A stretch of 64,000 nucleotides of DNA from Scyliorhinus canicula (Eukaryota). Below are positions 3,001 through 6,000 of the stretch, one piece after another; within the stretch, counting starts at the first letter, position 1; every line of letters begins with the position of its first letter. The stretch is taken from assembly GCF_902713615.1 (NCBI RefSeq), contig NC_052146.1, forward strand, positions 310,388,335-310,452,334. The letters are read 5' to 3'. A program made the position numbers.

Positions 3001-6000
3001 GGGACACGGTCCCTATTAAACGGGACCCTGGCACATCGTCCCGCTATTAAACGGGACACTGGGACACGGCCCCGCTATTAAACGGGACCCTGGCACATCG
3101 TCCCGCTATTAAACGGGACACTGGGACACGGCCCCACTATTAAACGGGATCCTGGGACACGGCCCCGCTATTAAACGGGACCCTGGGACACGGTCCCGCT
3201 ATTAAACGGGACCCTGGGACACGGCCCCGCTATTAAACGGGACCCTGGGACACGGTCCCTATTAAACGGGACCCTGGGACACGGTCCCTATTAAACGGGA
3301 CCCTGGGACACGGCCCCGCTATTAAACGGGATCCTGGGACACGGCCCCGTTATTAAACGGGACCCTGGGACACGGCCCCGCTATTAAACGGGACCCTGGG
3401 ACACGGCCCCTACTAAACGGGACCCTGGGACACGGCCCCGCTATTAAACGGGACCCTGGGACACGGCCCCGCTATTAAACGGGACCCTGGGACACGGCCC
3501 CGCTATTAAACGGGACCCTGGGACACGGTCCCTATTAAACGGGACCCTGAGACACGGCCCCGCTATTAAACGGGACCCTGGGACACGGTCCCGCTATTAA
3601 ACGGGACCCTGGGACACGGACCCGCTATTAAACGGGACCCTGGGACACGGCCCTTATTAAACGGGACCCTGGGACACGGTCCCTATTAAACGGGATCCCG
3701 GGACACGGTCCCTATTAAACGGGACCCTGGGACACGGTACCCCTATTAAACGGGACCCTGGGACACGGCCCCGCTATTAAACGGGAACCTGGGTTGCGGC
3801 CCCGCTATTAAACGGGACCCTGGGACACGGTCCCCATATTAAACGGGACCCTGGGACACGGCCCCGCTATTAAACGGGATCCTGGGACACGGCCCCGCTA
3901 TTAAACGGGACCCTGGGACACGGTCCCGCTATTAAACGGAACCCTGGGACACGGCCCCGCTATTAAACGGGACCCTGGGACACGGTCCCTATTAAACGGG
4001 ACCCTGGGACACGGCCCCGCTATTAAACGGGACACTGGGACACGGTCGCTATTAAACGGGATCCTGGGACACGGCCCCGCTATTAACCGGGACCCTGGGA
4101 CCCAGCCCCGCTATTCAACGGGACCCTGGGACACGGTCCCGCTATTAAACGGGACCCTGGGACACGGACCCGCTATTAAACGGGACACTGGGACACGGTC
4201 CCTATTAAACGGGATCCCGGGACACGGTCCCTATTAAACGGGACCTTGGGACACGGTACCCCTATTAAACGGGACCCTGGGACACGGCCCCGCTATTAAA
4301 CGGGACCCTGGGTTGCGGCCCCGCTATTAAATGGGACCCTGGGACACGGTNNNNNNNNNNNNNNNNNNNNNNNNNNNNNNNNNNNNNNNNNNNNNNNNNN
4401 NNNNNNNNNNNNNNNNNNNNNNNNNNNNNNNNNNNNNNNNNNNNNNNNNNGTAACCAGTAAGTACAGTTTCCATGATTCTCATGTGGTTTTGCTCTCAGA
4501 TGGAATCTTCTTGAACTTATCTTCCAGACTTAAATTCTTTGACTCCTTTGTTTACTCAGGTTATTGCCAATGTGGTGCCTCGAGCTGGTTGGTTTTATAT
4601 TCATACTTTATTGGCAAGGTGCCATCCCTAACTGCCCTGGGGAAGGTGGTGGCGAGCTGCCTTCTTGAACCACGGCACTCCATGTGGTGTAGGTACTGCT
4701 GTTAGGGAGCGAGTTCCCGGATTGTGACCCAGCGACAGTGAAGGAACAGCAATACATTTTGTCACAACACCCTGGGCCAACGCACGGTCAGTTCCAGCCC
4801 CACAGACCCCGGAGTCTCAACATAAGTGAATTAACCAGGAACTTGTGTACTTTCCTGAGATCTTTGACCCTTGATGTCTCCAATGAGTTATTAGCACAGG
4901 ATTTGAACGTAAACATTAAAGAATGTTTATTTGTAAAAAGAGAACAAGATGAACAGGTAATGGAAATAACATAACAGTGATCTATTAATATAAATGTTCC
5001 CCAAACACAGACCCACACTCCACCCACATGCACACAAGACAGACATACAGTGGGGAAGGGAAAGGATTGAAATGACGGGGATTAAACTGGGTGTGAGATA
5101 TTTGAGGATCTTTGCTGCTGAGGTTGAGGTCTTTGTCGGCAGTGATCACTTCAGAATGCGAGGTGTTGAACCATCAGTTGGGTTAGACCCTCAAACTGGG
5201 CCATTCAGGCTGGATTCTCAGGCTGTGGGATTCCCTCTGGGGACAGGCTTCAACTTGTGTTGAGCTGAATGTTACCTACGGAAGAAGAACTTCAAACCTG
5301 CTGCGTTTCTGATATGTGGTCAGCTTCAGCAGACTCACCAACAACTTGTCTCAGTTACACAGAATATTAGAGCAGCATTTTTATGAGGCCTTTGACTGAT
5401 CTGGTACCTTTAATCGAAGAGGGATCTGGAATGATCCCCCCTCCCCAGCTCTGTATTCAGGTTTTGAGTACTCACTAACTGCTCTGTGTACCTGAAGGGA
5501 GTTCAAACTGAGATTTGAGAGAGAATTGCCCTCTTCTGGGACAGAGATTCAAAAGGATTCTGCTCAGCTCTGCAGTTTGGAACAATCTGGGGCGGCCAAC
5601 ACCGATTTGTCCTCCAACACAGCCGGAGACTTCTCAGCTCAAACTCTCTTTGGCATTCCGTGGACCACAACAGTTTTACATGTTTCTGTAACATGGCCAA
5701 CATGCATTGTCTCTCAGTCTCTAACTGAGCCAGTCTCTGAGGGTTTGGTTTAGAAGGAGGTGGCTTTGGTGGTTGAAAAGTTTTGAAGTCCCCACCATGG
5801 GGGGTGAACAGACTGCCCCCTGGTACTTCCCTCCAACTTGGTCTACACTCTTTGGAATCTTCTCTATACCTGAATCGGTCTGTCCCTCACCACTCGCTGT
5901 GTGAATCTGTCTACATCACACTTTCAGACAGAACATTCCAGATCCTAACCACTCGCTGTGTGAATCTGCCTCCACCACACTCTCAGACAGTACATTCCAG

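What the first reader, a model, noticed from the sequence alone, without database searches (positions are those of the whole stretch)
4451..4480. 30-bp perfect identity at the contig edge suggests homogenised ectodomains
Seen: the contig after the 100-N gap begins with 30 nt identical to gene A 45061-45090 (last 8 coding nt of V2 plus 22 intron nt), then similarity stops abruptly. The tails of the two genes are far more diverged. Inference: gene B's membrane-proximal V exon may be nearly identical to gene A's through recent gene conversion, which would also explain why the assembly broke here. Shared ectodomain with divergent signalling is the hallmark of paired receptors.
Basis: partly seen in the sequence, partly recalled or inferred. 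Interest (0 to 1): 0.65.

Follow-up and report, generated by a model that had tools for sequence, protein, structure and literature searches.

The report
Shared exon edge between shark receptors
The 30 identical bases are real and mark where a second catshark immune-receptor gene, whose front half is missing from the assembly, shares a variable-domain exon with its neighbour, which is normal for this gene family.

Summary
Window 4451-4480 (+) is the exact reverse complement of 45061-45090, and all similarity stops at base 31.

The window is catshark (Scyliorhinus-like), not human. It holds two convergent genes of a large elasmobranch family of receptors built from V domains.
- Gene A (minus strand) is complete: leader, V1, V2, a transmembrane (TM) exon and three tail exons carrying ITSM, ITIM and ITSM motifs.
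- Gene B (plus strand) has only its last 7 coding bases of a V exon, its intron, a TM exon and three tail exons. Its V exons lie beyond the 100-N gap.

Only 15 of the 30 bases are informative. The first 15 also occur at the V1 junction.

Across the family, tails group into old classes shared between shark orders. The V2-type domain instead groups by genus, whatever the tail. That fits DNA-level homogenisation.

A related S. torazame gene model reads straight across the 4480/4481 boundary. An assembly chimera is therefore unlikely.

- A and B are not a classical inhibitory/activating pair. Both TM segments are uncharged and both tails carry tyrosines.

The parts
4451..4480 (+). The 30-mer. 4451-4457 are the last 7 coding bases of gene B's membrane-proximal V exon. 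4458-4480 are the first 23 bases of its intron, with donor GTAAGT.
   Evidence: Exact match to 45090-45061. Junction read. P0045 residues 303-326 align across it.
45061..45090 (-). The counterpart in gene A: the end of the V2 exon plus 23 intron bases.
4351..4450 (.). A 100-N assembly gap. It is too short to hold a 345-base V exon, so its length is a placeholder.
   Evidence: not filled or looked up
1..4350 (.). A 31-bp satellite of 143.5 copies that fills the whole contig left of the gap. It holds no V exon.
   Evidence: tblastn with V1 and V2 gives no hit below 4451.
7000..7150 (+). Gene B TM exon, 151 nt, phase 1 to 2, with an uncharged TM segment.
   Evidence: It is 69-72% identical to Mustelus, Carcharodon and Cetorhinus proteins.
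8895..8938 (+). Gene B cytoplasmic exon, encoding RIPDEDQNAVYATVG.
12000..12052 (+). Gene B small cytoplasmic exon, encoding DKTRSSNQEVQESPPAPL.
   Evidence: The tblastn E is only 0.004 in a 4.7-kb search, but splice sites and phase fit.
13619..13735 (+). Gene B last exon, with CKYAEL and AEYAVV motifs and the stop codon.
56160..56211 (-). Gene A leader exon.
47286..47636 (-). Gene A V1 exon: type-1 V, J-like FGNGTRLNV.
   Evidence: Pfam V-set E 4.1e-12
45084..45428 (-). Gene A V2 exon: type-2 V, SGNGSQLNV.
   Evidence: Pfam V-set E 4.2e-18
39986..40127 (-). Gene A TM exon, 142 nt, uncharged.
38318..38370 (-). Gene A cytoplasmic exon, with NTVYTSV (ITSM pattern).
35141..35184 (-). Gene A small cytoplasmic exon.
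22523..22639 (-). Gene A last exon, with LFYADI (ITIM pattern), TVYAAV (ITSM pattern) and the stop codon.

Best explanation
The 30 bases are the last 7 coding bases and first 23 intron bases of a V2-type V exon. That exon belongs to a second receptor gene (gene B, plus strand), and its V exons are missing from this assembly.

The bases match gene A because, in this elasmobranch family of receptors built from V domains, the type-2 V exon cassette is kept alike among paralogues. The likely means is DNA exchange, either gene conversion or unequal crossing-over. Meanwhile the TM and cytoplasmic exons belong to old, separate tail classes.

Base 4480/4481 is the end of one such exchange tract, 23 bases into the intron. 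Beyond it lies gene B's own old intron.

The contig starts exactly there because the assembler could not pass a repeat shared by many paralogues. An exact 30-base overlap at a contig's first base is what a k=31 k-mer graph leaves at a branch.

What is shown:
- the identity and its abrupt end;
- both gene structures;
- the old age of the tail classes;
- clustering of type-2 V domains by genus;
- a related genome that has the same junction.

What is inferred:
- that gene B's unseen V exon is about 90-99% like A's V2;
- that exchange rather than one recent duplication made it so;
- the k-mer reading of the contig edge.
For: 1. The identity is exact, has no chance expectation, and ends abruptly.

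2. Fifteen of the bases are intron sequence specific to V2. The V1 junction shares only the first 15 bases. Protein-level selection cannot explain this.

3. Gene B is a real, intact-looking tail. It has four exons with AG/GT sites and the same phases as gene A. Its TM exon is 69-72% identical to proteins of Mustelus, Carcharodon and Cetorhinus.

4. The tail tree has 94 rows. The A class has 39 rows (99*) spanning sharks and rays. The B class has 9 rows (SH-aLRT 91, unstarred) from Lamniformes and Carcharhiniformes, alongside a separate orectolobiform clade of 13 rows (98*). The ITAM-like class has 32 rows (100*).

5. In the careful type-2 V tree of 55 rows, domains cluster by genus or order. 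A Scyliorhinus-plus-window clade of 17 rows (96/96*) mixes tails: A 2, B 5, ITAM-like 3, none 6. Mustelus, Heterodontus, Carcharodon and Cetorhinus clades are mixed in the same way. The tail label needs 23 changes where 3 is the minimum.

6. The AU test rejects a single clade for the 8 membrane-proximal type-2 domains of ITAM-like-tail proteins, p 6.75e-68.

7. Type-2 V identity between tail classes is 94.8-99.1% in S. canicula (12 pairs) and 88.7-97.4% in S. torazame (27 pairs). By contrast, the A and B last exons are only 35-42% identical as protein to the other class.

8. P0045 is an S. torazame model whose last V domain sits in that clade. Its residues 303-326 align to window 4457-4528 without a break at 4480/4481 (87.5%, E 7e-11).
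Against: - Gene B's V exon is not visible, so everything rests on 30 bases, of which 15 are informative.
- P0045's V domain is only 88.7-89% identical to gene A's V2. That is similar, not 'nearly identical', though it comes from another species or paralogue.
- In 3 of the 8 B-tail proteins (Mustelus, Carcharodon, Cetorhinus) the membrane-proximal V is type 3, not type 2. The V2-to-B-tail join may therefore be a single shuffling event in the catshark lineage rather than ongoing conversion.
- Database hits are 90%-identity cluster representatives and predicted models. Some are clearly faulty: P0045 has a transposon-like N-terminus and an intron read-through.
- The group used in the AU test was chosen after the tree had been seen.
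- The k-mer reading is untested. The assembler is unknown. Of the 4 contig edges in the window only this one shows the pattern: one lies in satellite, one has no repeat, and one was not examined because the script stopped.
Confidence: 0.68

Rival explanations
1. There was one exon-shuffling or deletion event and no ongoing conversion. In the catshark lineage a type-2 V exon with 23 bases of its intron was joined once to a B-type tail gene by unequal crossing-over or by loss of a type-3 exon. The copies have simply not had time to diverge.
For: - B-tail proteins outside Scyliorhinus end in a type-3 V (3 of 8 B-tail proteins), while all 5 Scyliorhinus ones end in type 2.
- The architectures are clearly modular: 1-2, 2-2-3, 2-3-2-3-2 and up to 9 domains.
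- The same junction appears in an S. torazame model, so it may be old and inherited.
Against: - Type-2 domains cluster by genus in every genus sampled, not only in Scyliorhinus, and across three tail classes. That needs repeated exchange or repeated turnover.
- Thirty of 30 identical bases, with neutral intron included, sits uneasily with a junction older than the S. canicula/S. torazame split, unless it was refreshed later. The S. torazame read-through already differs at 3 of 24 residues.
Confidence: 0.2
2. Only a short junction is conserved. The exon end and the first intron bases are kept by splicing constraints, and gene B's V exon is as diverged as its tail.
For: - The first 15 bases (the codons of the J-like end plus GTAAGTAC) are indeed shared even by the 42%-identical V1 exon.
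- All three V types end in LNVT.
Against: - The next 15 intron bases are identical only between V2 and the contig edge, and differ at the V1 junction.
- The chance of 15 matching bases is about 1e-9.
- Every Scyliorhinus B-tail protein found carries a type-2 V that is 90-96% identical to gene A's V2.
Confidence: 0.07
3. It is an assembly chimera. The 30 bases were wrongly attached to an unrelated contig, or are a false graph edge, and gene B has no such exon end.
For: - The match sits at the very first base of a contig beside a placeholder gap.
- The neighbouring contig is pure satellite.
- Only 30 bases are involved.
Against: - A gene model from an S. torazame chromosome-scale record aligns continuously across the boundary, covering both the shared part and the B-specific part.
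- The phase of the 7 coding bases fits gene B's TM exon.
Confidence: 0.03

Closest known systems
Paired immune receptors homogenised by gene conversion, for example SIGLEC11/SIGLEC16 and CEACAM1/CEACAM3
   Same: - Linked genes of the Ig superfamily have very similar ectodomain exons and different signalling tails.
- The similarity is kept by DNA exchange. I saw only the abstracts in the search listing: PMC5701461 for Siglec-11/16 and PMC5112662 for CEACAM.
- Here type-2 V domains are homogeneous within a genus across three tail classes.
   Different: - The two genes in this window are not an inhibitory/activating couple. Both TM segments are uncharged and both tails carry tyrosines.
- B's motifs are non-canonical.
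- Gene B's ectodomain is unseen.
- The ectodomains are arrays of 1-9 V domains with J-like ends.
Novel immune-type receptors (NITRs) of bony fish
   Same: - A multigene family of type I receptors.
- The V domains carry a germline J-like motif.
- Members are mostly ITIM-bearing, with a minority of activating forms (abstract of PMC2442602 in the listing).
- The V domains resemble those of antigen receptors. The best PDB matches here are antibody V domains.
   Different: - NITRs are described in ray-finned fish. One review notes they are missing from the coelacanth and not yet found elsewhere (passages of PMC6795676).
- No NITR sequence was compared here.
- All 115 named hits are sharks, rays or skates.
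- This family has three V types in modular arrays and three tail classes.
SIRP family (several hits are auto-named 'tyrosine-protein phosphatase non-receptor type substrate 1-like')
   Same: - An N-terminal V domain with a J-like strand.
- A long tail with ITIM-type tyrosines.
- Paired family members. These features are recalled, not tested here.
   Different: - SIRPs have one V and two C1 domains (recalled).
- Gene A has two V-set exons and no C1 exon between V2 and the TM exon. The C1-set match is below cut-off, 16.4 against 21 bits.
- The RefSeq names are automatic.
[quoted passage not shown]
   Same: A cartilaginous-fish multigene family of activating and inhibitory Ig-superfamily receptors with variable domain number (passages of PMC3031540).
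   Different: - MDIR V domains are said to resemble CD300, TREM and pIgR (same passages). The V domains here match antibody V domains best.
- No MDIR sequence was available to compare.

Membership tests
Paired inhibitory/activating receptors | Two or more linked genes with near-identical ectodomains | tested here: inconclusive
   Gene B's V exons are in or beyond the N run, and only 30 bases are visible. At family level the feature is met for type-2 V domains.
Paired inhibitory/activating receptors | One member has a cytoplasmic ITIM or ITSM | tested here: met
   Gene A has TVYTSV, LFYADI and TVYAAV. These are motif matches only; phosphatase binding was not tested.
Paired inhibitory/activating receptors | The partner has a charged TM residue with a short tail, or an ITAM | tested here: not met
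   Gene B's TM segment (VIVLSTGIILAFVVLFCFALLT) has no charged residue. Its tail is long. Its YAEL and YAVV motifs are 20 residues apart, outside ITAM spacing.
NITR | V domain with a germline-joined J-like motif (FGxGTxLxV) | tested here: met
   V1 has FGNGTRLNV and V2 has SGNGSQLNV. Both are Pfam V-set.
NITR | Sequence kinship with bony-fish NITRs | not tested
   No NITR sequence was at hand. One search returned only elasmobranch names, and its sensitivity is limited to shared 5-residue words.
SIRP | One V domain followed by two C1-set domains (recalled definition) | tested here: not met
   Gene A has two V-set exons and then the TM exon. tblastn with 116 family proteins shows no C-type exon between them. 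C1-set scores 16.4 bits, below the 21-bit cut-off.
Concerted evolution by gene conversion or unequal exchange | Paralogues within a lineage are more alike than orthologous-position copies between lineages | tested here: met
   In the type-2 V tree the genus clades mix tail classes. The AU test gives p 6.75e-68. The tails cluster by class across orders. All of this is at protein level, on predicted models.
Concerted evolution by gene conversion or unequal exchange | Identity extends into non-coding flanks and has a sharp tract end | tested here: met
   23 intron bases are identical, and then there is no similarity. This is one tract end only.
k-mer graph contig-end overlap | The exact repeat starts at the first base of a contig, and its length equals k-1 of the assembler | tested here: inconclusive
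   The repeat starts at base 1 of the contig and is exactly 30 long. The assembler and its k are unknown. No other edge in the window shows it (which stopped before the fourth edge).

The most novel reading that the evidence does not exclude
The window samples an undescribed, elasmobranch-wide family of modular immune receptors.
- They carry 1-9 antigen-receptor-like V domains of three types, each with a germline J-like end.
- They have three ancient signalling tails: an ITIM/ITSM class, a related B class with degenerate motifs, and an ITAM-like class.
- The type-2 V exon is kept uniform within each genus by DNA exchange that reaches into the introns.

This would be a shark counterpart of NITR, KIR and SIRP-type paired receptors. 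The 4480/4481 boundary would be one directly visible end of an exchange tract.
Probability: 0.5. Interest if true: 0.55.

Novelty: new member of a known kind. Interest (0 to 1): 0.4.

Why it matters
On its own, the 30-base match is a small assembly-edge clue. It says where a gene's front half was lost, and it warns that V exons of this family are likely collapsed or misplaced in short-read shark assemblies.

Followed up, it points to a large shark and ray receptor family that reference annotation names inconsistently (IgSF3-like, SIRP-like, pIgR-like, 'immunoglobulin heavy chain-like'). Five literature searches found no description of it.

If the family works as its motifs suggest, the combination of homogenised ectodomains with inhibitory and activating tails already existed in cartilaginous fish, with V domains of antigen-receptor type. 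That bears on how germline-joined V-J receptors relate to the rearranging receptors.

Tried and rejected
- **Resumed similarity after an insertion.** A sensitive blastn of gene B (4451-12475) against gene A (45090-36000) found only the 30-mer and a non-significant hit at the TM acceptors. A transposon splitting a longer match is therefore not supported.
- **V exons left of the gap.** tblastn with V1 and V2 gives nothing below 4451. Bases 1-4350 are pure 31-bp satellite.
- **Other contig edges as a test of the k-mer idea.**
  - The edge at 4350 shares only 18 bases, with satellite copies.
  - The edge at 12475 has no second copy of even 12 bases, which stopped the script.
  - The edge at 12644 was not examined.
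  - This gives no support either way.
- **Single-linkage clustering of tails.** It merged 92 of the 101 tails clustered into one group, so I used a tree instead.
- **Literature.** Searches found no paper on this family. One search failed on a term that was too short. The library lacks most subscription journals, so this is weak evidence that the family is not in print. Supplementary files were not opened.
- These were structure prediction, fold search, complex prediction, the protein atlas, Rfam, the representatives search and genome contigs (bacteria and archaea only).
- **Human origin.** I do not take any contig here for human. The best hits are Scyliorhinus proteins.
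Full report
**1. The observation**

Window 4451-4480 (+) is the exact reverse complement of 45061-45090. It starts at the first base after the 100-N run 4351-4450.
- blastn scores it E 1.1e-8 within the window.
- With up to three mismatches the 30-mer has only these two sites, and none in 100 shuffles.
- Beyond base 30 there is no similarity, ungapped or gapped. A word-7 blastn of 4451-12475 against the gene-A strand 45090-36000 gives one other collinear hit, 66% identity at the two TM-exon acceptors, E 1.6.

The window is highly repetitive: 17,757 of 63,645 30-mer positions recur. 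This pair, however, is an isolated interval of exactly 30 bases.

- The donor is CCA|GTAAGT, so the split is 7 coding plus 23 intron bases.
- The first 15 bases are also identical at the V1 junction of gene A, although V1 and V2 are 42% identical as proteins. Only the last 15 bases, all intron, are specific to V2 and the contig edge.

**2. What the window is**

It is not human, and I take no contig here for human. The V2 exon finds 116 proteins (E up to 0.001, of 189 candidates). Of these, 115 are named, and all of those come from sharks, rays or skates. The best are 96-97% identical Scyliorhinus canicula proteins and 89-95% identical S. torazame proteins. The window is therefore catshark.

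I searched exon by exon. I made no joined model and searched none.

**3. The two genes**

Gene A lies on the minus strand and has seven exons:

| Exon | Coordinates | Notes |
|---|---|---|
| Leader | 56211-56160 | |
| V1 | 47636-47286 | Pfam V-set, E 4.1e-12 |
| V2 | 45428-45084 | Pfam V-set, E 4.2e-18 |
| TM | 40127-39986 | uncharged |
| Tail 1 | 38370-38318 | TVYTSV |
| Tail 2 | 35184-35141 | |
| Last | 22639-22523 | LFYADI, TVYAAV, stop |

- Both V exons end in a germline J-like motif.
- Both match antibody V domains best in the PDB.

Gene B lies on the plus strand, convergent with gene A.
- It begins in the assembly with the 7 coding bases at 4451.
- It continues with a TM exon (7000-7150), then exons 8895-8938 and 12000-12052, and a last exon 13619-13735.
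- Exon phases match gene A throughout.
- The TM segment is uncharged. Its tyrosine motifs (NAVYATV, CKYAEL, AEYAVV) sit where A's do but do not fit the ITIM or ITSM patterns.
- The exon 12000-12052 rests on a weak tblastn hit (E 0.004) plus fitting splice sites and phase.

A and B tail exons are 53-54% identical in global nucleotide alignment.

Left of the gap, bases 1-4350 are a 31-bp satellite with no V exon. A 345-base V exon cannot fit in 100 N, so the gap length is a placeholder. Gene B's leader and V exons are simply absent from this stretch.

**4. The family**

The 116 hits hold 325 V domains, 1 to 9 per protein. The domains are of three types, in modular orders such as 1-2, 2-2-3 and 2-3-2-3-2. 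All three types end in LNVT, which explains the uninformative first 15 bases.

A tree of 92 tails plus the two translated TM exons shows old classes.
- The A class has 39 rows (99*) and spans sharks and rays. Gene A sits with S. torazame and Carcharodon.
- The B class has 9 rows (SH-aLRT 91, unstarred) from Lamniformes and Carcharhiniformes. Gene B sits in it, 98% identical to an S. canicula protein.
- A separate orectolobiform clade of 13 rows (98*) lies beside the A and B classes in an unresolved fork. I read it as a relative of the B class from its similar TM segments.
- The third class has 32 rows (100*).

By motif pattern:

| Tail class | ITAM pattern | ITIM or ITSM pattern |
|---|---|---|
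| A | 0 of 38 | 36 of 38 |
| B | 1 of 8 | 4 of 8 |
| Third (ITAM-like) | 19 of 32 | 26 of 32 |

These are pattern matches on predicted proteins, not function.

**5. Homogenisation**

A careful tree was built from 55 type-2 V domains of Scyliorhinus, Mustelus, Carcharodon, Cetorhinus and Heterodontus, plus gene A's V2. It groups them by genus or order, not by tail.
- A Scyliorhinus-plus-window clade of 17 rows (96/96*) holds tails A 2, B 5, ITAM-like 3 and none 6.
- The Mustelus, Heterodontus, Carcharodon and Cetorhinus clades are mixed in the same way.
- The tail label needs 23 changes on this tree, where 3 is the minimum.

The AU test rejects a single clade for the 8 membrane-proximal type-2 domains of ITAM-like-tail proteins, with a log-likelihood difference of 206.8 and p 6.75e-68. 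I named that group after seeing the tree.

Between tail classes, type-2 V identity is 94.8-99.1% in S. canicula (12 pairs) and 88.7-97.4% in S. torazame (27 pairs). Gene A's V2 is 88.7-96.5% identical to the 16 other members of the clade.

Because the 30-mer includes 15 V2-specific intron bases, the sharing is at DNA level.

**6. Is the junction real?**

P0045 is an S. torazame gene model on a chromosome-scale record. It ends in an intron read-through.
- Its residues 303-326 align to window 4457-4528 at 87.5% (E 7e-11). The alignment runs straight across 4480/4481.
- Its last V domain lies in the Scyliorhinus type-2 clade and is about 89% identical to gene A's V2.

A type-2 V exon followed by this B-type intron therefore exists independently of this assembly, which argues against a chimera. 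The 89% figure also warns that 'nearly identical' may overstate the case. P0045 is a poor model, with a transposon-like N-terminus, and it comes from another species or paralogue.

Gene B's V exon stayed unchecked.

**7. Why 30 bases, and why at the edge?**

This part is inference. An exact overlap that begins at a contig's first base and is 30 long is what a k-mer graph with k = 31 leaves where two paths diverge. It tells us only that the shared stretch is at least 30 bases.

The assembler is unknown, and no other edge in the window shows the pattern (incomplete).

**8. Mechanism and rivals**

The best reading is exchange of the type-2 V cassette between paralogues, by gene conversion or unequal crossing-over, with a tract end 23 bases into the intron.

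The main rival is a single shuffling event in the catshark lineage. It is supported by one fact: B-tail proteins of Mustelus, Carcharodon and Cetorhinus end in a type-3 V, while the five Scyliorhinus ones end in type 2.

The 'short conserved junction' and 'chimera' rivals are weak, for the reasons given in sections 1 and 6.

**9. Comparison with known systems**

The system works like paired-receptor families homogenised by gene conversion, such as Siglec-11/16 (PMC5701461) and CEACAM (PMC5112662). I saw only their abstracts in the listing.

It also works like NITRs, in having germline V-J domains and ITIM tails (PMC2442602, abstract in the listing). NITRs are reported from ray-finned fish (passages of PMC6795676). 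Skate MDIRs are said to have CD300/pIgR-like V domains (passages of PMC3031540).

I could test membership of none of these by sequence.

The A/B pair itself fails the activating-partner criterion.

Five searches found no paper on this family. The library is incomplete and I did not open supplements, so this is weak evidence.

**10. Verdict**

- The feature is an ordinary consequence of concerted evolution plus an assembly break.
- It lies in a shark receptor family that appears not to have been described as such.

Noticed in passing
window 39134-39412 (-): A decayed V-like stretch lies between gene A's TM exon and its next exon. It gives weak tblastn matches to family V domains (28-35% identity, E 0.002-0.3), contains a stop codon and ends in a J-like QLNV. 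It may be a relic V exon.
   Followed up: no
window 22692-33754: An 11-kb array of a 28-bp repeat (about 415 copies, 78% matches) fills most of gene A's last intron. A 33-bp array of 82 copies lies at 35496-38209 in the preceding intron.
   Followed up: no
window 47840-48723: An 80-bp tandem repeat of 11 copies (91% matches) sits in the intron between gene A's leader and V1 exons. It gives long open frames on both strands that are not genes.
   Followed up: no
window 9516-10163 (+), 52348-53103 (-), 41464-43160 (+): LINE-type reverse-transcriptase fragments lie in the introns of both genes and upstream of V1. Pfam RVT_1 scores E 3.2e-20 for 9516-10163 and 1.5e-24 for 52348-53103. The third stretch was judged by eye only.
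   Followed up: partly
window 40872-41096 (+) and protein P0045: The N-terminus of the S. torazame model P0045 (residues 2-72) matches a transposon-like open frame in gene A's intron (46.7% identity, E 8e-12). That reference model is therefore a chimera of repeat, V exons and intron read-through.
   Followed up: no
window 56160-56211 (-): Gene A's leader exon is 18 of 18 residues identical to the N-termini of two S. canicula proteins that carry B-type tails (P0062, P0066). Sharing between tail classes may therefore extend to the leader.
   Followed up: no
window 4622-4696, 13225-13272, 18406-18480: A short interspersed element occurs three times at 80-85% identity. One copy lies 140 bases after the 30-mer in gene B's intron.
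   Followed up: no
window 53508-54125: A 30-bp tandem repeat of 20.6 copies (97% matches) creates a 382-codon open frame of CTCTGWRWPN units. It is a repeat artefact, not a gene.
   Followed up: no
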